NCBI GenBank assembly: GCA_910587405.1
Contig: CAJUKS010000001.1
Span: forward strand, 197,325-261,324
Reading direction: 5' to 3'
Length of the DNA: 64,000 nucleotides
From: an uncultured Alphaproteobacteria bacterium
GTDB lineage: Bacteria; Pseudomonadota; Alphaproteobacteria; RF32; CAG-239
Made by a program: the position numbers and the translations under genes. Under the pieces are notes generated by a model. The model saw only the letters and a list, made by a program, of their open reading frames with translations, did no database searches and was not told the DNA's origin. Below are positions 3,630-38,240 of this stretch, one piece after another (the stretch's first letter is position 1; every line of letters starts with the position of its first letter).

Positions 3630-3656
3630 TTGCGGCCGTTTCCTCTTTTTAAACTT

Positions 3657-3967
3657 AAAAAATGAGCCGTTCTGTTGCTGGGTGGCTCACTCCCCACTCA
3701 CAACTAACCATAGTTATGAGGATTTGCGTTTGTTGCAGCTACCAATTAAGCAGCCAAAGCAACAGGTGCTAATTCATTATCGTTAGCATTCATTTTATTT
3801 TGAACCGATAACGGTGGTATCTCACCGAACACAGCAAAATGCCTTTATTATACCCTGTCAATCCTGTCTCGCCCCCGTTGAAAATTTTGGTGGAGGCGCC
3901 GGGTACTGCCCCCGGGTCCAGAATATCTATTCCACACAGCCTCTAGTGTCATAGTTGATTGCTCAAC
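3657..3967 (-). ncRNA. ssrA: Two-piece (circularly permuted) tmRNA, ssrA: acceptor piece followed by coding piece
   Basis: On the minus strand there is a tRNA-like T-arm and acceptor ending ...CCGGGGGCAGTACCCGGCGCCTCCACCA (CCA at plus 3888..3893). An 11-nt intervening segment follows, then GGGGGCG, which can pair with CGCCUCC. The tag reading frame is GCT AAC GAT AAT GAA TTA GCA CCT GTT GCT TTG GCT GCT TAA, giving ANDNELAPVALAA plus stop (plus 3746..3787). A terminator hairpin plus T-run ends near plus 3657. Confidence 0.75.
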
Positions 3968-3973
3968 ACTTAT

Positions 3974-4002
3974 ATTTTAGGCGATTAAAAGATATTTTGC
4001 AA
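3974..4002 (-). promoter_or_regulatory. Sigma-70-like promoter for ssrA (TTGCAA-N17-TAAAAT)
   Basis: Minus-strand -35 TTGCAA (plus 3997..4002), an exact 17-nt spacer, and -10 TAAAAT (plus 3974..3979). It sits just upstream of the predicted 5' end of the acceptor piece. Confidence 0.45.
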
Positions 4003-4104
4003 GTGGTTTGCATAAATAATTGTGTGATAACTTGCGCGACGGACTTGTCAAGCGACGCCGAGGTGTTAAAATTGCGGTCGTAAAAGCACAATGAAAGGGA
4101 AAAA

Positions 4105-12407: not shown

Positions 12408-13106
12408 ATGAAAGAAGAGACTCCCGACTACATTGGTCATCGGCAGCGCCTTAAAGAACGTTTTAAGCTTGGCGGCGGTCAGGATATGGCCGATTATGAA
12501 ATGCTGGAACTGCTGTTGACGTTGGCTATTCCGCGAAAGGACACCAAGCCGCTGGCTAAAGCTCTGGTCAAAGAATTCGGCGGTTTTGCCGAAGTTCTGT
12601 TTGCGCCCGACGACCGGTTGATGACTTTTAAAGATTTGAAAGAAAGTTCGGTGCTGGTGTTTAAGATTGTCCGGGAGTCTGCCTTGAGAATGTCTTGGCA
12701 AAAGTTAAGCGCCACCGAAGCGCCGGTTTTGACCAGTTTCGATTCGATTATGGAATATTGTCGAGCGGCATCGGGTTATAAGGAAAGAGAAGAGTTTCGC
12801 GTGATTTTTCTTAATGCCAAAAACCGGATTATCGGCGAAGAGGTGCAACAACGCGGGAGTGTCAACGCGGTTGCGATTCATCCCGGAGAGGTGATGCGTG
12901 CCGCGGTTTTAAAAGGGGCAACAGCCTTGATTTTGGTTCACAATCATCCCTCGGGCGATGTGACGCCGTCACGAGCGGATATTGAAGTGACGCGCAAGAT
13001 TGAGGGTGCATTGTCGGCAGTTGATATTCGTTTGATTGATCATTTTATTGTCAGTAAAAATTTGGTATATAGTTTTAACGATCACGGATTGTTGATGAAA
13101 CGTTAA
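12408..13106 (+). CDS. radC: RadC-like JAB/MPN domain protein
   Basis: HNHPSGDVTPSRADIEVTRKI JAMM motif with an N-terminal HhH-like region. Confidence 0.9.
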   Translation: MKEETPDYIGHRQRLKERFKLGGGQDMADYEMLELLLTLAIPRKDTKPLAKALVKEFGGFAEVLFAPDDRLMTFKDLKESSVLVFKIVRESALRMSWQKLSATEAPVLTSFDSIMEYCRAASGYKEREEFRVIFLNAKNRIIGEEVQQRGSVNAVAIHPGEVMRAAVLKGATALILVHNHPSGDVTPSRADIEVTRKIEGALSAVDIRLIDHFIVSKNLVYSFNDHGLLMKR

Positions 13107-13156
13107 AAAAATGTTGCAAAATATTTCTTTACGGGCTAATTATAAGAAAACCCCGA

Positions 13157-13192
13157 CGGGACATAGCTCAGCCTGCCAGTCGCGCTTGCTTT
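13157..13192 (+). pseudogene. tRNA-Pro 5' pseudo-copy (acceptor and D-arm, then anticodon-arm 5' strand), truncated at the anticodon loop
   Basis: cgggacatagctcagcctg is identical to 13354..13372 of the intact tRNA. After 6 divergent nt, gcgcttgctttggg matches 13377..13390. The copy then runs into the 75-bp repeat unit. Confidence 0.55.
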
Positions 13193-13260
13193 GGGCTGGA
13201 GGAAGAAAAAACTTCCGGCGGAAGTTTTTTCGACGACAGGTGAAGTTTTGTTAAATTTAC
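13182..13260 (+). repeat. Direct repeat unit copy 1 (partner at 13501..13580)
   Basis: gcgcttgctttgggctggaggaagaaaaaacttccggNggaagttttttcgacgacaggNgaagtNttgtta. The two copies share about 75 nt with 3 mismatches. The unit contains an internal hairpin (aaaaaacttccgg/ccggaagtttttt). Confidence 0.6.
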
Positions 13261-13353
13261 GGCAGACGAAAGTCGGCTGTAAATTTTAGAAAACGAACAG
13301 GGCGAGCAAAGCCAGGGGGGGAGAGGAATTATTATAAAGTATAAAATTAATAA

Positions 13354-13430
13354 CGGGACATAGCTCAGCCTGGTAGAGCGCTTGCTTTGGGAGCAAGATG
13401 CCGATGGTTCGAATCCGTCTGTCCCGACCA
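13354..13430 (+). tRNA. tRNA-Pro (anticodon TGG)
   Basis: Cloverleaf: acceptor CGGGACA/TGTCCCG, anticodon stem CTTGC/GCAAG with loop TTTGGGA, T-loop TTCGAAT, encoded CCA. Confidence 0.9.
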
Positions 13431-13432
13431 GT

Positions 13433-13461
13433 AAAAAGCCGCCTGCAAAGGCGGTTTTTAT
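13433..13461 (+). terminator. Rho-independent terminator after tRNA-Pro
   Basis: aaaaagccgcctgcaaaggcggttttta. Confidence 0.5.
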
Positions 13462-13500
13462 TTTGTGTAAGGCATCTTGCTTCCATTTAGCAAAGCGTTT

Positions 13501-13580
13501 GCGCTTGCTTTGGGCTGGAGGAAGAAAAAACTTCCGGTGGAAGTTTTTTCGACGACAGGCGAAGTCTTGTTATTTTGCAA
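13501..13580 (+). repeat. Direct repeat unit copy 2
   Basis: See 13182..13260. Confidence 0.6.
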
Positions 13581-13664
13581 ACGAGCGGGAGCGAAGTTGG
13601 CAAAAGTTACAAGACAAGTGACCGCAGCGCATTAGCGATTGCCCAGAGGGCAGAGCTTATAAGC

Positions 13665-13740
13665 AAGAGAAGATGCCGATGGTTCGAATCCGTCTGTCCC
13701 GACCAGTAAAAAGCCGCCTGCAAAGGCGGTTTTTATTTTT
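13665..13740 (+). pseudogene. tRNA-Pro 3' pseudo-half (anticodon-stem 3' strand through CCA) plus a duplicated terminator
   Basis: gcaag[agaag]atgccgatggttcgaatccgtctgtcccgacca followed by gtaaaaagccgcctgcaaaggcggtttttatttt, identical to 13386..13461 except for a 5-nt insertion. There is no matching 5' acceptor strand upstream. Confidence 0.6.
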
Positions 13741-13762
13741 GTGGTTTTTAGGTGTATCAAAA

Positions 13763-13782
13763 AAACGTTCATTTTTTTGATA
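13763..13782. repeat. Left arm of a perfect 20-bp inverted repeat (aaacgttcatttttttgata)
   Basis: The reverse complement occurs at 13887..13906. The arms bracket 104 bp, and the right arm ends 27 bp before the autotransporter start codon. The left arm also sits inside a local palindrome (13755..13782). Confidence 0.6.
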
Positions 13783-13886
13783 TAGATAAATGTAGTCACT
13801 TGTTTTTTTGAAAAAAACAAACAAAAGTTCCAATTTCCGAGCCTTTGCGGTTGATTTAAAAATAAAATTATTATAGATTGACCACG

Positions 13887-13906
13887 TATCAAAAAAATGA
13901 ACGTTT
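13887..13906. repeat. Right arm of the inverted repeat (tatcaaaaaaatgaacgttt)
   Basis: Exact reverse complement of 13763..13782. Confidence 0.6.
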
Positions 13907-13933
13907 AAATGCATTTAGATAAGGATTGCGTGA

Positions 13934-16900
13934 ATGAATAAGCATATTTCTTGGGCAATTGCATTAACGGCGACCACTTTTTTGAGTGCGCCGGCGATTG
14001 CCGCCTCTCTAACCCCGACTTTGGATAATTTGAAATCGGAGGCCGGAACTGTTTTACCAACCATTACGGAAACCTATAACCTGACCGAGCTGAGCGGTGA
14101 TTTGCCGGAAGGCGCGGTGAAAGTGGAAATCGGCGACAAAGATTACTACTTTACGCCGATCGGCGATGATGCCGGCTTGTTGACCACTTTGGCCGGAACT
14201 TCGGCGGGAATGCTGAAGGAAAGCGCCGATGGTTTTTTTGAACTTGACGGCGTCAAGTATGGTTTTAATGTTGCGTCGATACCGGACAGTTCGTTTTCAT
14301 ACAGCGAAGGATCGGAAGATGACTATAATTTTACCGTGCAGGAAGCAGATGCAGAAGGCAAGCTGACAACCAAATATTATAAAATATCCCTGCTTCAGGA
14401 TAAATTCTCAACCGCCGGAAACATTTCTTGGGAAAAAGTGTCGGCTAAAGAAGCGGATACGGTCCAAGTTGATCTTCCCAACGGCGAAACTCAGTATTTT
14501 AAATATACTTATACCGATGATCCCAACCGGACCAAATACACTTCCACACAAACAAAGCTCACCGGTGACGTTGATGCCGATTTCGTACGTATTAAAAGAG
14601 GATTTAGCAAGGGCGGCGGTATAGAGAATAAAAATACGATTGACAGCGTTTCCGGCAATTTTATATACGATTATGCTCCCAATGGTGCCGGTGCCATTTA
14701 TAATGCGGGAACAATCGGAGATGTTAATGGTAATTTTGTTGCTAACTATACTGGTTTGGCCAGAGCCGATCAACTGGGACATGGCGGAGCAATTTATAAT
14801 GATAAAAACGCAACCATGGGTAACATTACCGGCAATTTCATCGGCAATATTGCCGGTCAGGCGCCGGGCAGCGGACGCGGCGGTGCCGTTCACAATGACA
14901 GAACGGCGACAATCGGTAACGTTTCCGGTCGTTTTATCGGCAATTCTGCCATGGGAAGCGGCGGTGCTATCAATAATGAAGGAACTCTCGGTAATATAAC
15001 TGCCGATTTCCTTTCCAACTCCTCTTCTGCGGGCGGGGCTATTTATAATCCGGGTGTCATCGGCGATATTGTCGGAGACTTTATTGCCAACTCTACCAGC
15101 GGGACTATGGGCGGTGCCATTTACATTTATAACGGAGGCGCCGGTCGTGTAGGCACGGTCGGCAATATTACCGGCAATTTTATTGCCAACTCCGCCCAAA
15201 GGGAAGGCGGCGCTATTGCCAACGAGGGAATTATCGGCAAAATTGAAGGCGATTTTATCGGCAACAGCGGTGCTATTTATAACGGCGGCATGGGAACTAT
15301 TACGGAAATTGTCGGCAATTTCGTCAATAACTCGAGTAAAGAAGAAGGCGGGGCGATTAGAAATCATAATAAGGTTTTTAATATTACCGGTAACTTCATT
15401 GCCAACTCGGCTGAAAAAGACGGGGGGGCAATTTTTAGCGATATAAGTAAAACCGTCGGCGATATTGACGGGGACTTTATCGGTAACTCGGCCAAAGGAA
15501 ACGGCGGCGCAATCTATAATCAACGGAATGTGACCGTCGGAAAAATCAACGGCAGTTTTATTGACAACTCTGCTACAGTCGGCGGTGCGGTGTATACGCC
15601 GGTCAATATGACTTTTGCATCGGGTTCGGACGTCCATTTTATGTCGGGGAACTATGCCGAAGATGCAACCCGCGGGAAAGTTTACAATGCGGTGTATGGT
15701 TCGGGAACACCGGTGATCACCTTTGATACCACCGGCGGCGGCGCGTGGGCAATCAACGACAATATGGAAGGCGGTAATTATGTTTTCAAAGGTGACGATA
15801 CCGTTAACGCCGATACCGGTACCACGACGCAATATGTGGCGATCAACAACGATCTTGTCAATGCTGCCGATGTTCAGGTTGAAAATACCACTTTGCGTTT
15901 CGGCGCTTATGAGCACGACGACCAAACGGCCAAAAACTGGGACGGCAAGGGCGCGTTTGTTGCCTCGCTGAACGCTGACGGCACTGCCAACCGCGATGCT
16001 GATGCGGTGACCGTTTTGTCGTTGAACAACGCGGTGTTCGATCTTGCCAACGGCTATCTGGATGTAGTGAAACTGAAAGGTTATTCGGCAACCGACAGCT
16101 TTATGCATATCGACGTTGATCCCGACAATATGAAAGCCGACGAACTGCATGTTGCCGGTGATGTTGAAGGGGTGACCAAGCTGATCGTTCATGCTTCGTC
16201 CGATGCCGACATCCGCGGCAAAGGCGAGATTTTGTTTGCAGAATCGGAAAACGACACCACCGGTAACGAGGGTTCGTTTGTGGTCTCGCGCGTTTACAAG
16301 AGCCCGTATCTGTTTGACGTCAACTATACGCAACGGGCCGAGAACAGCAATCAGTGGGGCTTGACCATGAATAACGAAGAGAATCCGGACAAGTATGTTG
16401 AACCGGAAGAACCGGACGTTCCGGATGTCCCTGATGTTCCTGACGTTCCGACGCCATCGGTTGATTATCGTAAAGTGGCACCGGAGGTGATGGCTTATCA
16501 GGGACTGCCGGTAGCGGCGTTAGAGCAGACCAAAGGCATGATCGGCAACATCAGCCGCCAGGTTCAGGGACGTCGTTTCTACTGCCCGGGCTGCGGCTTC
16601 TATGACAGCTACTGGAACGGTCAGGCGTTCAATACCCTGTGGGCGAACGCGGTTTACCAAACTTCGGAAAACGAAGCGTTGGTCAATGTTGATGCCGACG
16701 TCTGGGGCATTGAAGCCGGCGGCGACCTGCAACATGATCTCAACAACAAGCTGGGTCTGTTCCTGTCTTACCGCAAGGGTAATTACGACATGAACGGCGA
16801 CGGCAAGCATCATTACTCGACCGTTGGATCTGAGATTGACATTGATTCGTATCTGGCCGGTTTGTATTACCGTTATGACCGTAACAACTGGTGGACTTTT

Positions 16901-17419
16901 GCCACCGTATACGGCGGCATTCAGAGAGTTGATCTGAAGACCAAAGACGGCATCAAGTCGGATACCGACGGTACCGAGTTCGGCGGCAGCGTTGAGTTGG
17001 GTTATGACTATGCGATCAACAAAACCCTGTACCTGACCCCGAGTGTCGGCGCCTTCTATACTCAGGTTGATTACGACGACGCCACCGACAGTGCCGGCAA
17101 GATTGCGAAGTACAACACCTTGCGTCAGTTGGAGTTGGAAGCTGGCGTTAAACTGACGAAGGCGTTTGTAATGGACGAAGGCTATGCCAACGTTTACGTC
17201 AAACCGAGTGTTGTACAAACCATTGCCGATGGCGACGAAGTTCGGATCACCGGTTTGGGCAAAGTCAGCACCTTGGATGACCAGACGCTGGGCCGGATTG
17301 AACTCGGCGGCCGCTACGGCTTCACCGAACAGTTGTCGGCCTACGGTTGGGCCAACCACACCTTCGGCGACGACTACAAAGCCTCGACCTTCGGTTTGGG
17401 TCTCAGCTACAGCTGGTAA
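13934..17419 (+). CDS. Autotransporter outer-membrane protein with Chlamydia Pmp-type passenger repeats (GGAI / FxxN)
   Basis: 1161 aa. The N-terminus has a signal peptide. The passenger carries about 15 reiterations of GNFI(A/G)NS...GGAIYN. A PEEPDVPDVPDVPDVP linker precedes a C-terminal beta-barrel translocator ending ...GLGLSYSW (terminal aromatic). A terminator lies at 17443..17475. Confidence 0.8.
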   Translation: MNKHISWAIALTATTFLSAPAIAASLTPTLDNLKSEAGTVLPTITETYNLTELSGDLPEGAVKVEIGDKDYYFTPIGDDAGLLTTLAGTSAGMLKESADGFFELDGVKYGFNVASIPDSSFSYSEGSEDDYNFTVQEADAEGKLTTKYYKISLLQDKFSTAGNISWEKVSAKEADTVQVDLPNGETQYFKYTYTDDPNRTKYTSTQTKLTGDVDADFVRIKRGFSKGGGIENKNTIDSVSGNFIYDYAPNGAGAIYNAGTIGDVNGNFVANYTGLARADQLGHGGAIYNDKNATMGNITGNFIGNIAGQAPGSGRGGAVHNDRTATIGNVSGRFIGNSAMGSGGAINNEGTLGNITADFLSNSSSAGGAIYNPGVIGDIVGDFIANSTSGTMGGAIYIYNGGAGRVGTVGNITGNFIANSAQREGGAIANEGIIGKIEGDFIGNSGAIYNGGMGTITEIVGNFVNNSSKEEGGAIRNHNKVFNITGNFIANSAEKDGGAIFSDISKTVGDIDGDFIGNSAKGNGGAIYNQRNVTVGKINGSFIDNSATVGGAVYTPVNMTFASGSDVHFMSGNYAEDATRGKVYNAVYGSGTPVITFDTTGGGAWAINDNMEGGNYVFKGDDTVNADTGTTTQYVAINNDLVNAADVQVENTTLRFGAYEHDDQTAKNWDGKGAFVASLNADGTANRDADAVTVLSLNNAVFDLANGYLDVVKLKGYSATDSFMHIDVDPDNMKADELHVAGDVEGVTKLIVHASSDADIRGKGEILFAESENDTTGNEGSFVVSRVYKSPYLFDVNYTQRAENSNQWGLTMNNEENPDKYVEPEEPDVPDVPDVPDVPTPSVDYRKVAPEVMAYQGLPVAALEQTKGMIGNISRQVQGRRFYCPGCGFYDSYWNGQAFNTLWANAVYQTSENEALVNVDADVWGIEAGGDLQHDLNNKLGLFLSYRKGNYDMNGDGKHHYSTVGSEIDIDSYLAGLYYRYDRNNWWTFATVYGGIQRVDLKTKDGIKSDTDGTEFGGSVELGYDYAINKTLYLTPSVGAFYTQVDYDDATDSAGKIAKYNTLRQLELEAGVKLTKAFVMDEGYANVYVKPSVVQTIADGDEVRITGLGKVSTLDDQTLGRIELGGRYGFTEQLSAYGWANHTFGDDYKASTFGLGLSYSW

Positions 17420-25461: not shown

Positions 25462-27615
25462 TTACTCCGCAGCGTTTGTTGTTTCGGCCGTATCGCTCTG
25501 ACAGTTCCACAAATGGGCATAGCGGCCGCCGCGTTTTAACAGTTCCGGATGGGTTCCGGTTTCGGTAATTTTCCCTTTTTCGACGGTTATGATGCAATCG
25601 CAGTCGCGGACGGCAGACAGCCGGTGGGCGATGACAAATACGGTTCGGTCGCGGCAGATCGACGCCATGTTTCGGCGGATAATTTTTTCGGATTCATAGT
25701 CAAGGGCCGAAGTTGCCTCGTCGAAAATCAAAATGCGCGGATTGTTGACCAAAGCGCGGGCAATGGCAATCCGTTGGCGCTGACCGCCCGAAAGCGATGC
25801 GCCCCGTTCTTCAATCAGCGTGTCATATCCTTGCGGCAGTTCGGTGATAAAGTCGTGAGCCCCGGCCAGCTTGGCTGCCGCCATAACTTTTTCGGCAGAA
25901 ACCGCGGGGTTGGTAAGGGCGATGTTTTCGCGTACCGTTTTGTTAAACAAGAAATTTTCCTGCAAAACGACGCCGATTTGGCGCCGCAGCCAGGCAACGT
26001 CGACGGTGGAAATGTCGATGCCGTCAATTAAAACCTTGCCGCTTTCGGGAATATAGAGACGTTGAATAAGCTTGGTAATCGTAGATTTTCCCGATCCGCT
26101 GGGGCCGACAAAACCGATCTTTTGCCCGGCGCCGGCCTTAAAATTGATTTTTTTGAGAATCTCCGGCCCGTTAGGAAGATAACGAAAAACAATGTCGCGA
26201 AATTCGACTTCCCCGCGGATGGCGGGGAGACTGCCTTTGGATACGTTTTGGTTGTCTTCGGCCGGATTGTTAAGAATATCCGAAAGTTTTTCAATGGATA
26301 TCTTTGCCTGCTGAAAGTTTTGCCATAGTTGCGAAAGCCTGAGGATCGGCTGGGTAACGCGCCCGGAGAGCATATTGAACGCAATCAGCTGGCCGACCGA
26401 CAATTCACCTTTCATGACCAACGAAGCGCCGATCCACAATGTCAGGGCCATCGTGATTTTTTGTATCAATTGTACCAGTTGCCCGGCAATGTTGTTAATG
26501 TGCGAAGCGCGAAAAGAAGAGCCGACGTAAGCCGCCAACTGTTGTTCCCAACGGCGTTGCATTTGCGGTTCAACGGCCAACGACTTGACGGTTTCGACCC
26601 CGGAGACCGCTTCGACAAGAAAACACTGGTTTTCGGCGCCGCGGCGGAAACGTTCGTCGATCCGGGAGCGCAACAAGGGGGTGAACAACAGCGACAAAAC
26701 GATATAAAAAGGGATAGACAGCAGAACGATTAACGTTAATGTTGCCGAATAGAAAAACATGACGGTGAAAAAGACCAGGGTAAAGAAAAAATCGATCATC
26801 AGCGTGAGAGCGGAACCGGTAAGGAAACTGCGGATATTTTCCAGCTCGTGCACGCGGGCAACCGTATCGCCGACCCGTCGGGCACCGAAGTAGGCCAACG
26901 GCAGATGAATGAGATGTTTGAAAAGTCCGGCGCCCAATTCGACGTCAATCCGGGTTGTGGTATGGGAAAAGGTGTAAGTGCGCAAGGCGCCGAGAAGCGT
27001 TTCGAAAACGGAAATGCAAATCAAGGCCACCATTAAAACGTCGAGGCTGGACAGTCCGCGATTGACCAAAACTTTATCAATAACGACTTGAAACAGCAGC
27101 GGCGAGATCAGGGCAAAAAGCTGCAAAAAAAACGAAGCCAGAAGCACTTCGCCGAACAGACGCCGGTATTTGACCACGGCGGGAATAAACCACGAAATGT
27201 CAAATTTGCGGTTTTTGCCGCTGAGAAAGTCGCGGCAGGTCATCAGCAACAGCCTGCCGTTCCATTTTTGCAAAAATTGTTCTTTGCTTAAGATTTGCGG
27301 ATGATTTCCCGATTGCGGGTCCTGAATCAATACTTTGTCGGAAGTTGTACGCCCGATGACGAAATAGGTTCGGTCGTCGGCTTGGGCAATTGCCGGAAGA
27401 GTTATCTTATCGAGCCGTTCCCAGTCGGTTTGAATAAATCGGGCCTTGAAAGAAAATTCTTTGGCCAGTTGCAGCAGTTCGTATTCTTCAAAATGTGAAG
27501 TCCGGCGGTCGTATTTATGCTTAATTTGGTCGATGGAGATCGGTTTTTCAAAATAGTTGGCGAGAATTGCAAAACAGGCTAAACCGGTGTCAAGTGCAGG
27601 AAGATGCGTCGTCAT
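25462..27615 (-). CDS. hlyB: HlyB-like type I secretion ABC exporter with a non-catalytic C39-like N-terminal domain
   Basis: 717 aa with a six-TM domain, Walker A GPSGSGKST, an LSGGQRQR signature and Walker B ILIFDEATSALD. The N-terminal domain reads DTGLACF, with Thr where a C39 peptidase has its catalytic Cys. This makes it a C39-like domain, typical of RTX-substrate transporters. Confidence 0.9.
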   Translation of the reverse strand: MTTHLPALDTGLACFAILANYFEKPISIDQIKHKYDRRTSHFEEYELLQLAKEFSFKARFIQTDWERLDKITLPAIAQADDRTYFVIGRTTSDKVLIQDPQSGNHPQILSKEQFLQKWNGRLLLMTCRDFLSGKNRKFDISWFIPAVVKYRRLFGEVLLASFFLQLFALISPLLFQVVIDKVLVNRGLSSLDVLMVALICISVFETLLGALRTYTFSHTTTRIDVELGAGLFKHLIHLPLAYFGARRVGDTVARVHELENIRSFLTGSALTLMIDFFFTLVFFTVMFFYSATLTLIVLLSIPFYIVLSLLFTPLLRSRIDERFRRGAENQCFLVEAVSGVETVKSLAVEPQMQRRWEQQLAAYVGSSFRASHINNIAGQLVQLIQKITMALTLWIGASLVMKGELSVGQLIAFNMLSGRVTQPILRLSQLWQNFQQAKISIEKLSDILNNPAEDNQNVSKGSLPAIRGEVEFRDIVFRYLPNGPEILKKINFKAGAGQKIGFVGPSGSGKSTITKLIQRLYIPESGKVLIDGIDISTVDVAWLRRQIGVVLQENFLFNKTVRENIALTNPAVSAEKVMAAAKLAGAHDFITELPQGYDTLIEERGASLSGGQRQRIAIARALVNNPRILIFDEATSALDYESEKIIRRNMASICRDRTVFVIAHRLSAVRDCDCIITVEKGKITETGTHPELLKRGGRYAHLWNCQSDTAETTNAAE

Positions 27616-28286
27616 AGACTAAACCTTGGGTAGATTAATTATAAAAATTAGCTTAAAAGTATTTGTAAAAATGTCAATTATTTTAATCATAGATTGTGCT
27701 TCGGTTGATAACTCTGCCGACTCTGTTTTTCATCTTTTATATAATAAAATATATCTTGCCCTGTACTCCGAATCTTTTGTTCATTGATAACAAGCTAAAT
27801 TTTACTAAAAACAATTTTTATGCGAATGAAAATCTTTTTTACATCCTATAGTAAGTTAAATAATTGAATGTTATACACAAAGTTGTATTTTTTATTTAAA
27901 AAATAGAGACAAATAAAAATATGCAATTATTATTTGATCGTAGATAATGATCTGTAATTGCTTGAGTATAGGAATAATAAGTATGAAGAAAATCTCGGCT
28001 GACCCTTCTTTAAAAGATGTTTCCGTATCAACCGAAACCGAAGCTAAATCACCGACCGGTGATTCCAAAAACAAGAACACGTTGCATTTTAGTGATGCAA
28101 ATACTAACGAAAATAAAAAATCGATGGATATTCCGATTTCTTATAACGAATATAATCTGCACGAAGCAATTACAACCGATAAAAGCGGAGAACTGAAAGA
28201 CTTGGTTCGCAAGTTTTTACAATTGTCGGATTTATTGAATTGTTTGTTGTTATCGATTTTGTGGAATTTGGCCTGATTGAGCCTTT

Positions 28287-28330
28287 GTTACTCATCGGGG
28301 TTTATTTTGGTCATGACGGAAACGGTTTTT
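28287..28330 (+). repeat. Diverged ~45-bp fragment of the RTX gene (matches 32797..32842)
   Basis: ggggtttattttggtcatgacggaaacggtttttgggga versus agtttattttgaccatgacggaaacggttttcgggaaaa. Confidence 0.45.
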
Positions 28331-28645
28331 GGGGAAATATTTGTGTCTCGTGAAGGCCGAGTCGCGTGAAAAATACATTTTTTTTGAAGACAGTTGCGGA
28401 AAGCAGCTGTTTTTTTTACAAATTAGTAATATTTTTTTAAAAAAAATTCTACTAAAGGTGGTGAAACTTTTTAGTGTAGCGCTTTTTTATATTTCTGAAA
28501 ATATTAGGAAAAAATAAACAGTTAATACACAATAATAAGTTGTGATGTTTTTAACTGATAATAATAGTTGTATTTTTCTATTGATAATATCTATTAAAAA
28601 TTGCACCATACTTAAAGTGGTAAGGAAATAATAAAAAGAAATAGC

Positions 28646-38163: not shown

Positions 38164-38240
38164 GCGCTCTTAGCTCAGCAGGATAGAGCAACAGCCTTCT
38201 AAGCTGTGGGTCAGAGGTTCGAATCCTCTAGAGCGCGCCA
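38164..38240 (+). tRNA. tRNA-Arg (anticodon TCT)
   Basis: Acceptor GCGCTCT/AGAGCGC, anticodon stem ACAGC/GCTGT with loop CTTCTAA, T-loop TTCGAAT, CCA encoded. A terminator hairpin lies at about 38250..38278. Confidence 0.9.

What the first reader, a model, noticed from the sequence alone, without database searches (positions are those of the whole stretch)
13140..13745. tRNA-Pro embedded in nested partial self-copies and 75-bp direct repeats, a scarred integration hot spot
An intact tRNA-Pro (13354..13430) is accompanied by several partial copies. The first is a 5' pseudo-half broken exactly at the anticodon loop (13157..13192). The second is a 3' pseudo-half with duplicated terminator (13665..13740). 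The third is two copies of a 75-bp unit that itself begins with the anticodon-arm sequence gcgcttgctttggg (13182 and 13501). The break points coincide with the tRNA anticodon loop and 3' half, the classical targets of tyrosine-integrase elements. This suggests repeated insertion or excision, or a split tRNA copy.
Basis: seen in the sequence. Interest (0 to 1): 0.55.

Follow-up and report, generated by a model that had tools for sequence, protein, structure and literature searches.

The report
Unstable tRNA-Pro partial-copy repeat array
The single working proline tRNA gene of this gut alphaproteobacterium is flanked by truncated copies of itself, each fused to a conserved hairpin-rich spacer; related strains gain and lose these units, and a prophage can integrate into the spare 3' copies as well as the real gene.

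Summary
There is one functional tRNA-Pro(UGG) at 13354-13430. A 5' pseudo-half (13157-13195) lies upstream. A 3' pseudo-half with a duplicated terminator (13670-13739, 100% identical over 70 nt) lies downstream. A 72-nt unit occurs twice.

Relatives carry a prophage with a large serine recombinase at this tRNA. It sits either in the real gene or in the last pseudo 3' half. Its junctions share only about CCGACCA at the tRNA 3' end, it carries none of the repeat material, and the window has no recombinase within 10 kb.

The mosaic is old: it is shared by species with 81-100% RadC identity. It is also unstable. Units of 275, 153 and 186 nt vary in copy number, and a 197-nt segment or a whole unit is missing in some relatives.

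Both pseudo-units look like truncated copies of one interrupted tRNA, broken after G37 by a hairpin module of about 150 nt. That module shows compensatory changes and GNRA loops on the + strand, matches no Rfam family, and was found only beside tRNA-Pro.

The closest known analogue is the E. coli tRNA-linked repeats. How the G37/A38 insertion arose, and whether the module acts as RNA, are unresolved.

The parts
13114..13143 (+). Promoter-like TTGCAA-N17-TAATTA(T) directly after radC; the likely promoter of the tRNA-Pro transcription unit
   Evidence: The sequence is nearly invariant in all relatives down to 60% RadC identity. In L005 and L011 the tRNA starts 12-13 nt after it. The consensus scan did not flag it, so this assignment is an inference from conservation.
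13157..13195 (+). 5' pseudo-half (a* b): tRNA positions 1-37 with a rearranged D arm, ending at G37
   Evidence: Repeats D4 and D3. 0 of 39 differences versus strain L002. ARAGORN draws only 2 D-stem pairs and no GG in the D loop.
13196..13243 (+). U1: first copy of the U segment, with the A/T-tract hairpin at 13205-13231
   Evidence: D1, I7. Compensatory changes across species.
13245..13294 (+). H1 hairpin of the upstream unit (GAAA loop); sequence diverged from the downstream H1 but still a hairpin
   Evidence: (I4), fold, alignments A1/A2.
13304..13311 (+). GAGCAAAG: remnant of tRNA positions 37-44, showing that the upstream unit is a 3'-truncated interrupted tRNA copy
   Evidence: The same motif joins the module to ATGCCG... 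in L011, and it ends the module in L012, L002 and L096.
13327..13353 (+). AT-rich leader holding a partial copy of the -10 region (AATTATTATAAAG) just before the real tRNA
   Evidence: Compared with 13137-13146. In L012, L090 and L096 the sequence upstream of the tRNA is duplicated before both 5' copies.
13354..13430 (+). Functional tRNA-Pro(UGG)
13431..13464 (+). Intrinsic terminator t1
   Evidence: stem 13434-13459 followed by a T run.
13471..13497 (+). Y: inverted, imperfect copy of tRNA positions 25-49
   Evidence: (I6: 15 nt, 93% complementary to 13388-13402), plus reading of the sequence. Relatives have the shorter CCAAAGCAAGC, which forms a perfect 20-nt palindrome with b.
13501..13514 (+). 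b: copy of tRNA positions 24-37 (the 5' anticodon arm, ending at G37)
   Evidence: D3.
13515..13562 (+). U2: second copy of the U segment, hairpin at 13524-13550
   Evidence: D1, I8.
13564..13615 (+). H1 hairpin of the downstream unit (GGGA loop); its outer arms are invariant across species
13640..13652 (+). Hairpin B (TGCCC-AGA-GGGCA)
   Evidence: CC/GG changes to UU/AA in 3 sequences.
13662..13705 (+). 3' pseudo-half (c): degenerate AGCAAG, a 5-nt insertion, then an exact copy of tRNA positions 41-76
   Evidence: D2. The equivalent copy serves as a phage attachment site in L034 and L023.
13706..13739 (+). Terminator t2, an exact copy of t1

Best explanation
This is a lineage-conserved but recombinationally unstable array of tRNA-linked repeats around the one functional tRNA-Pro(UGG) gene of a gut alphaproteobacterium.

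**Layout.** Write a = tRNA 1-25, b = 26-37, c = 38-76, t = terminator. The window then reads: P - a* b U H1 (c-start) - a b c t - Y b U H1 B c t.

**Common origin of the two pseudo-units.** Both are truncated copies of one ancestral tRNA-Pro copy that was interrupted between G37 and A38 by a hairpin-rich, non-coding module of about 150 nt. The upstream unit lost its 3' end. The downstream unit lost its 5' end.

**How the array changes.** It now evolves by unequal homologous recombination or slippage between its own 14-72-nt repeats. This adds or deletes whole units: 275 nt in this species, 153 and 186 nt in others.

**Role of the 3' copies.** The duplicated T arm, acceptor strand and terminator are working secondary attachment sites for a temperate phage with a large serine recombinase. 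That phage did not create them.

**Role of the hairpin module.** It is kept by selection. Most probably it is RNA co-transcribed with the tRNA, as a 5' leader released by RNase P and as a read-through trailer that ends in a tRNA-like 3' end. E. coli TLR RNAs work this way.

**Shown:** the layout, the polymorphism, the phage junctions, and the covariation.
**Inferred:** transcription and processing, the RNA role, and the order of historical events.
For: **Strain and species polymorphism at exactly the repeat periods.**
- L001 has two identical 275-nt units.
- L005 (99% RadC) lacks exactly the 197 nt between the two 5' copies.
- In 51_20-like genomes, [U X2] occurs once (L074, L076, L007), twice (L079, L071, L023) or three times (L073) with a 153-nt period.
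- L090 has two upstream units with a 186-nt period.
- L009, L088 and L097 lack the downstream unit.
- Contigs and scaffolds break or carry N gaps in the array.

**Homologous rather than attP origin of c t.** The identity is 70/70 through the terminator. The terminators are species-specific but alike within each genome.

**Common origin of the two units.** The b|U junction is identical in every unit of every species (A2). GAGCAAAG, the remnant of positions 37-44, ends the upstream module.

**Phage.** Pfam finds Resolvase, Recombinase and Zn_ribbon_recom; PHROG calls it an integrase. attL is ...GTCCCGACCA|ATATAAAAAAAT, either in the real tRNA or in the last c. attR is ...GATGTCG|CCGACCA followed by host t and the array (L071).

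**Selection on the module.**
- 11 of 27 pairs have changes on both sides, versus 3.6+-1.2 in shuffles (0 of 500 reach the observed value) and 1-4 when the partners are slid.
- Hairpin B covaries.
- Loops are GGGA, GGCA or GAAA on the + strand.
- Folding z-scores are about -5.
- Divergence between the window and L002 is 0/39, 1/48, 7/107 and 0/36 in a*b, U2, X2 and c. Third codon positions of the flanking genes differ at 53/233 and 45/266.

**Analogy with TLRs.** See PMC8144298.
Against: - No expression data are available, so transcription, read-through of t1 and processing are all inferred.
- The U hairpin was not scored as a terminator by the scan, and in L096 it consists of A-U pairs only.
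- Compensatory changes in quasi-palindromes can arise by template switching without RNA-level selection.
- Only about 6 independent lineages are available.
- Other intergenic DNA nearby is also less diverged (14 of 187) than third codon positions, which weakens the conservation argument.
- The event that put the module at G37/A38 is unexplained.
- The inverted copies (Y here, and an inverted 3' fragment in L094) are not predicted by simple unequal crossing-over.
- L077 shows a fused a* b U X2 c t with no intact tRNA. If that contig is real, the story needs revision.
Confidence: 0.6

Rival explanations
1. Integration scars. The partial copies would be attL/attR remnants left by repeated insertion and imprecise loss of integrase-bearing islands, and the hairpin module would be the surviving ends of such an island.
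For: - The geometry (intact tRNA, 205 nt, displaced 3' fragment) matches the island signature described in PMC4383910.
- The break points lie in the anticodon loop, a known tyrosine-integrase crossover zone.
- Empty sites exist in relatives (L009, L088, L097).
- The locus is used by a prophage.
- A truncated integrase-like N-terminus (DUF6538, 27 bits) lies after tRNA-Pro in L014 and L015, and a 19-nt 3' fragment lies 110 nt downstream of the tRNA in L013 and L015.
Against: - No relative was found with genes between the repeats.
- The only recombinase seen is a serine enzyme acting at CCGACCA, and it brings none of this DNA.
- The repeat includes the host terminator at 100% identity.
- The module is conserved with covariation across species, which is unlike decaying island ends.
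- An integrase that restores the tRNA would leave b and c contiguous, not b|module|c.
- There is no recombinase within 10 kb in the window.
Confidence: 0.2
2. A small non-coding mobile insertion. The module of about 150 nt would be a hairpin-ended element (IS200/IS605-derived PATE-like, or intron-like) that inserted specifically between G37 and A38 of tRNA-Pro copies. The middle copy would be kept intact by selection.
For: - The same precise junction occurs in both units and in all species, with no target duplication beyond an ambiguous G.
- There are subterminal hairpins at both ends.
- The left-end hairpin is terminator-like, as in IS200 (from memory).
- L096 has an intact-looking 5' half fused to the module.
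- L077 shows the simple 'interrupted gene' form.
Against: - The covariance model finds copies only beside tRNA-Pro in 270 kb, including the 64-kb window.
- No Y1 transposase was found by tblastn in any held sequence.
- The left- and right-end hairpins are unlike each other.
- The tandem [U X2] junctions differ from the b|U junction, so those copies arose by recombination rather than transposition.
- There are no matches in the phage or plasmid collections beyond host-locus contigs.
Confidence: 0.1
3. A functional split or intron-containing tRNA. The 5' pseudo-half and the 3' pseudo-half would be joined, by cis or trans splicing, into a second tRNA-Pro.
For: - ARAGORN accepts the hypothetical joined product as tRNA-Pro(UGG).
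- The break is at 37/38, the canonical intron position in archaea and eukaryotes.
- L077 has the two halves in cis around one module.
Against: - The D stem is reduced to 2 pairs and there is no G18G19.
- The 3' strand of the anticodon stem is mutated to GCCAG in L005 and L007, and there is a 5-nt insertion in the window.
- The downstream unit lacks positions 1-25 in all species.
- There is no group I intron or ribozyme hit even at E<=10.
- The upstream exon ends in G, not the U that group I introns require (from knowledge).
- The real tRNA lies between the halves.
Confidence: 0.02

Closest known systems
tRNA-linked repeats (TLRs) of E. coli, e.g. the tyrT 178-bp repeats / rtT RNA and the RrA/B/F RNAs of rrn operons (PMC8144298)
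   Same: Repeats lie directly downstream of a stable-RNA gene. Each ends in a copy of that gene's 3' end: 18-19 bp in E. coli, 19 nt in L013/L015, and 36 nt plus the terminator here. They sit between two terminators and occur in tandem in variable number. Their function is largely unknown. Some are sRNAs made by terminator read-through and processed through the tRNA-like 3' end.
   Different: There is no sequence or Rfam relationship. Here the repeat also carries the 5' anticodon arm fused at G37 to the spacer. There is a mirror-image 5' pseudo-half upstream of the tRNA, and an inverted anticodon-arm copy. The 3' copy is demonstrably used as a phage attachment site.
Displaced tRNA 3' fragments flanking genomic islands or prophages (Islander model, PMC4383910)
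   Same: An intact tRNA is followed by a direct repeat of its 3' part. The site is occupied by mobile elements in relatives, and empty sites exist.
   Different: The DNA between the repeats is 205 nt and non-coding. It is conserved with covariation and is host-resident. The repeat extends through the host terminator. The phage actually seen uses a serine recombinase whose junctions share only about 7 nt.
Large serine recombinase attB sites and pseudo-attB sites (PMC3783163, PMC5937489)
   Same: A short attachment site is enough, so an exact duplicate of the T arm, acceptor strand and terminator works as a second attB. Lysogens are seen at both sites.
   Different: Here the second site is an exact paralogue inside a repeat array rather than a degenerate pseudo-site elsewhere in the genome.
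tRNA introns (bacterial group I; archaeal/eukaryal BHB introns at 37/38)
   Same: The interruption lies in the anticodon loop, exactly between positions 37 and 38.
   Different: There is no group I signature, and the upstream exon ends in G. No complete exon pair has an intact D arm and anticodon stem. No splicing machinery is known for this in bacteria.

Membership tests
tRNA-linked repeats (TLR) | Located immediately downstream of a tRNA/rRNA gene, in the same orientation | tested here: met
   The unit at 13466-13739 follows tRNA-Pro and t1 on the + strand. The same holds in L005, L007, L011 and L099.
tRNA-linked repeats (TLR) | The 3' end of the repeat is identical to the 3' end of the upstream tRNA (18-19 bp in E. 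coli) | tested here: met
   13670-13705 equals tRNA positions 41-76 and continues through the terminator (70/70). A 19-nt version exists in L013 and L015.
tRNA-linked repeats (TLR) | Sequence or structure homology to the described E. coli TLR RNAs (Rfam rtT) | tested here: not met
   No Rfam family other than tRNA reaches threshold. Nothing relevant appears at E<=10.
tRNA-linked repeats (TLR) | Transcribed with the tRNA (terminator read-through) and processed | not testable with these tools
   No expression data are available.
Genomic-island / prophage att scars at a tRNA | Direct repeat of the tRNA 3' part bounding foreign DNA | tested here: inconclusive
   The repeat is present, but the bounded DNA is 205 nt, non-coding and conserved.
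Genomic-island / prophage att scars at a tRNA | Integrase or recombinase gene next to one repeat | tested here: not met
   None is found within about 10 kb in the window. It is present only in lysogenic relatives, outside the array.
Genomic-island / prophage att scars at a tRNA | The element supplies the repeat copy (attP-borne), so its flank differs from the host flank | tested here: not met
   Both copies carry the same host terminator. The real phage brings its own terminator and shares only about CCGACCA.
Group I intron in tRNA | Group I core (Rfam Intron_gpI) and a U before the 5' splice site | tested here: not met
   There is no hit at E<=10. The junction follows G37.
IS200/IS605-derived miniature element (PATE) | Multiple dispersed copies after a fixed target motif; a cognate Y1 transposase; similar left- and right-end hairpins | tested here: inconclusive
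   There are no other copies in 270 kb, no TnpA in the held sequences, and the end hairpins are dissimilar. Whole genomes could not be searched.
Split / permuted tRNA gene | Both halves can form a canonical cloverleaf | tested here: not met
   ARAGORN accepts the joined product, but with a 2-pair D stem and no GG in the D loop. The downstream units lack positions 1-25.

The most novel reading that the evidence does not exclude
The hairpin module of about 150 nt would be a previously undescribed non-coding element that inserts, or once inserted, specifically between positions 37 and 38 of tRNA-Pro(UGG). That is the canonical tRNA-intron position, here in a bacterium. The module leaves no target duplication and persists as a structured RNA attached to tRNA fragments. 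The flanking pseudo-halves would then be invaded tRNA copies, and the middle gene the one copy that selection keeps clean.
Probability: 0.1. Interest if true: 0.7.

Novelty: new variant of a known kind. Interest (0 to 1): 0.4.

Why it matters
tRNA-linked repeats have been known in E. coli since 1978, and most still have no assigned origin or function.

This locus is a second, unrelated example in uncultured gut Alphaproteobacteria, and its natural variation is unusually informative. Copy number changes between strains. The spacer is conserved and covaries. A prophage is caught using both the real tRNA and a spare 3' copy as its attachment site.

Three consequences follow.
- Spare attachment sites could let phages integrate without touching the essential tRNA or its terminator.
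- Leader and trailer RNAs of tRNA operons may carry function of their own.
- On the practical side, the array breaks metagenome assemblies. It can also mislead tRNA-fragment-based island finders into calling a 205-nt 'island'.

Tried and rejected
- **Rfam.** Searched at gathering threshold and at E<=10. Only tRNA matched, with no intron, ribozyme, rtT or other family.
- **Coding potential.** Six-frame translation of four units shows no conserved ORF or start codon.
- **Phage origin of the module.** The 16-mer GCAAAAGTTACAAGAC, the tRNA 3' end and both phage-end sequences were scanned in IMG/VR. The only real matches are host-junction contigs L023, L034 and L070, and no free attP was found. The INPHARED and PLSDB blastn searches returned only host-locus virome contigs and ordinary tRNA-Pro genes.
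- **Homology with the 110-nt insert of L013/L015.** Not significant: score 21 against a shuffle maximum of 24.
- **Dispersed-repeat idea.** The covariance model R1 finds copies only at tRNA-Pro. tRNA-Arg at 38164 has no such repeats.
- **IS200/IS605 idea.** This is a weak test.
- **Minihelix idea.** I looked by eye for a 5' strand in the module that could pair with the 3' acceptor strand. The candidate, CGACGACA, is not conserved (L011, L012), so I dropped it.
- **BHB-intron idea.** No intron segment is complementary to UGGG next to the 3' junction.
- **Assembly-artefact idea for the window.** Rejected, because independent assemblies agree.
- **Inversion of the 13763-13906 element.** No contig held it in the opposite orientation.
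Full report
**1.

ARAGORN and Rfam find a single tRNA-Pro(UGG) at 13354-13430. No second tRNA-like hit appears in 12900-14000, even at E<=10.

The repeat finder confirms each partial copy:
- 13156-13175 equals the first 19 nt of the tRNA plus one upstream base.
- GCGCTTGCTTTGGG (tRNA positions 24-37) occurs three times.
- A 72-nt unit occurs at 13182 and 13501 with 96% identity.
- 13670-13739 is an exact 70-nt copy of tRNA positions 41-76 plus the terminator.

Pieces of the unit occur exactly twice in the window, against 0 matches in shuffles. The same layout is found in independent assemblies (L003, L001, L002), so it is not an assembly artefact.

**2. Anatomy.**

Write a = tRNA positions 1-25, b = 26-37, c = 38-76, t = terminator. 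The window then reads:

promoter-like TTGCAA-N17-TAATTAT | a* b | U1 | H1 | GAGCAAAG | AT-rich leader | a b c | t1 | Y | b | U2 | H1 | hairpin B | degenerate c start | c | t2

- U is a 27-nt A/T-tract palindrome.
- H1 is a hairpin of about 52 nt with a GNRA loop.
- GAGCAAAG (13304-13311) matches tRNA positions 37-44 with one extra A. In L011 the same motif joins the module directly to ATGCCG....

So the upstream unit is a 3'-truncated copy, and the downstream unit a 5'-truncated copy, of one interrupted tRNA: a b | module | c. The break lies between G37 and A38.

**3. Who carries it.**

The flanking genes are alaS, tspO, map and radC upstream, and an autotransporter and sugar epimerases downstream. 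Relatives are uncultured gut Alphaproteobacteria, labelled 'Azospirillum sp. 51_20', UMGS149 and similar.

The mosaic is shared by species with 81-100% RadC identity, but it is never the same twice:

| Locus (RadC identity) | Layout |
|---|---|
| L001 (same species) | two identical 275-nt units |
| L005 (99%) | lacks exactly the 197 nt between the two 5' copies |
| 51_20-like genomes (88-89%) | X1' a b c t Y' b [U X2]n c t, with n = 1, 2 or 3 and a 153-nt period |
| L009, L088, L097 | no downstream unit |
| L086 | has also lost the terminator |
| L012, L091 (81-82%) | one upstream unit |
| L090 (81%) | two upstream units, 186-nt period |
| L096 (85%) | upstream 5' half with a normal-looking D arm, fused at G37 to the module |

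Many contigs end in the array, and scaffolds carry N gaps inside it.

More distant relatives (60-69% RadC identity) have other partial copies:
- L013 and L015 have a 19-nt 3' fragment 110 nt downstream of the tRNA.
- L094 has an upstream fragment of positions 1-19 and 23-34, and an inverted 3' fragment downstream.

The 110-nt insert of L013 is not detectably homologous to the module.

**4. Mobile elements.**

The window has no recombinase within about 10 kb.

In relatives a prophage abuts the tRNA. It encodes DUF2924 and a 568-aa large serine recombinase (Resolvase, Recombinase and Zn_ribbon_recom domains; PHROG integrase). It also encodes a ParB-methylase and the terminase gpA.

- The attL junction is GTCCCGACCA|ATATAAAAAAATAAAAACGG. 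It lies in the real tRNA in L070, L012, L084, L085, L087 and L090, and in the last pseudo 3' half in L034 and L023.
- L071 gives an attR-type junction: phage-like DNA...CCCTAGATGTCG|CCGACCA, then host t1 and the whole array. Its neighbouring gene is 55% identical to the DUF6362 protein of the L034 phage.

The shared core is therefore only about CCGACCA. The phage brings none of Y, b, U or H1. Both c copies are usable attachment sites.

L014 and L015 carry a truncated ORF after the tRNA or its 3' fragment. It matches DUF6538 at its threshold. As far as I recall, that domain sits at the N-terminus of tyrosine integrases.

**5. Why the partial copies are not scars of that phage.**

- The 3' repeat is identical through the host terminator. 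The terminator differs between species but is nearly the same in both copies within each genome. That is the pattern of homologous duplication and concerted evolution, not of an attP-borne copy.
- The copy-number variants differ by exactly one repeat period.
- An integrase that restores the tRNA would leave b and c adjacent, which is not what is seen.

**6. The module is under constraint.**

An alignment of b, U and H1 from 11 distinct units gives these results:
- 96.9% of cells are paired.
- 11 of 27 pairs have changes on both sides, against 3.6+-1.2 in shuffles (0 of 500 reach the observed value).
- The slid-partner controls give only 1-4 such pairs.

Further points:
- Hairpin B switches CC/GG to UU/AA.
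- H1 loops are GGGA, GGCA or GAAA, i.e. GNRA on the + strand only.
- The outer arms of H1 and the b|U junction are invariant across species whose synonymous sites are heavily diverged.
- Both units fold with z of about -5.
- Between the window and strain L002, third codon positions differ at 53/233 (radC) and 45/266 (map). By comparison, a*b differs at 0/39, U2 at 1/48, X2 at 7/107 and c at 0/36.
- There is no conserved ORF and no Rfam family.
- A covariance model finds copies only next to tRNA-Pro in 270 kb.

**7. How it most likely works.**

*Shown.* The array expands and contracts at its own repeats, and the spare 3' copies serve as attachment sites.

*Inferred.* The conserved promoter after radC drives a transcript in which the real tRNA is preceded by a structured leader of about 200 nt (a* b U H1). 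RNase P would release that leader. Read-through of t1 would add a trailer (Y b U H1 B c) whose tRNA-like 3' end directs normal 3' processing. This is the model proposed for E. coli TLR RNAs, which lie between dual terminators (PMC8144298). The function of the released RNAs is unknown.

*A caution.* The U hairpin looks like a bidirectional terminator by eye. The scan did not score it as one, and in L096 it consists of A-U pairs only.

**8. Comparison with known systems.**

- **E. coli tRNA-linked repeats.** These are the best match in kind: same position, same 3'-end identity, same tandem variability. There is no sequence relationship, and the anticodon-arm fusion, the upstream mirror unit and the inverted copy are extra.
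- **Displaced tRNA fragments of genomic islands** (PMC4383910). The geometry is similar, but three defining features fail (see the membership table).
- **tRNA introns.** Only the 37/38 position is shared.
- **An IS200/IS605-type miniature element.** This cannot be excluded without whole genomes, but nothing supports it beyond the clean junction.

**9. Unexplained.**

- How the module came to lie at G37/A38.
- The inverted anticodon-arm copy Y. In relatives it forms a perfect 20-nt palindrome, CCAAAGCAAGCTTGCTTTGG, which suggests fold-back or template-switch repair at the self-complementary anticodon stem.
- Contig L077, which reads radC - a* b U X2 c t with no intact tRNA. This is either a real recombinant across the 72-nt repeat or a mis-join through a stretch of at least 37 identical bases.
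- ARAGORN accepts the hypothetical joined halves as tRNA-Pro, but with a 2-pair D stem.
- Template switching in quasi-palindromes could mimic compensatory evolution.

**10. Verdict.**

This is a real and well-observed feature. The 'integration hot spot' label is right, but the 'tyrosine-integrase scar' mechanism is not supported. It is best filed as a new variant of tRNA-linked repeats with a conserved structured spacer and phage-usable spare attachment sites. Interest is moderate.

Noticed in passing
window 13763-13906: Perfect 20-nt inverted repeats (AAACGTTCATTTTTTTGATA / TATCAAAAAAATGAACGTTT) flank 104 nt. That segment holds a TTGATT-N17-TAGATT promoter-like site facing the autotransporter gene at 13934-17419. 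The 124-nt segment is absent from L005 and L072, where one repeat copy remains. Contig L077 ends inside the repeat. This is a candidate invertible promoter (phase variation) or a MITE. Only one orientation was seen in four assemblies.
   Followed up: partly
window 12408-13106 versus L002 6001-6699: The RadC protein is 100% identical between two strains whose genes differ at 58 of 699 nucleotides, 53 of them in third codon positions. This indicates very strong purifying selection on a protein of unclear function.
   Followed up: no
L077 (OFFO01004281.1), minus strand, locus positions about 80-330: This contig reads radC - promoter - pseudo 5' half - U - X2 - 3' half - terminator, with no intact tRNA-Pro. 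It is either a natural recombinant across the 72-nt repeat or an assembly mis-join.
   Followed up: partly
L094 3196-3500 (species with 69% RadC identity): Upstream of tRNA-Pro lies a partial copy (positions 1-19, a 20-nt insert, then positions 23-34) without the hairpin module. Directly after the terminator lies an inverted copy of the tRNA 3' end, CGGGACTATAGGATTCGAACC.
   Followed up: no
L013/L015 downstream of tRNA-Pro; L014 6750-6874: These loci have a TLR-like layout: tRNA, terminator, a 110-nt insert, a 19-nt copy of the tRNA 3' end, then a second terminator. In L014 and L015 a truncated ORF (MALKYNHLERRKHTYYFRYRVP...) follows, matching DUF6538 at threshold. It is probably an integrase remnant.
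   Followed up: partly
window 13623-13628 and 13729-13734: The invariant GACCGC in the module can pair with the 3' strand (GCGGTT) of terminator t2 in the alifold consensus. It could be an antiterminator, but there is no covariation to test it.
   Followed up: no
window 3655-4006 (-) and 27000-32000: A two-piece (permuted) alphaproteobacterial tmRNA gene lies at 3655-4006 on the minus strand. A low-GC island (GC 0.27-0.38) lies at about 27-32 kb within a polysaccharide-type gene region.
   Followed up: no
L091 3560-3830: Two direct repeats of about 100 nt, unrelated to the U/H1 module, follow the tRNA-Pro terminator in the species with 81% RadC identity. They sit where other species have the downstream unit.
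   Followed up: no
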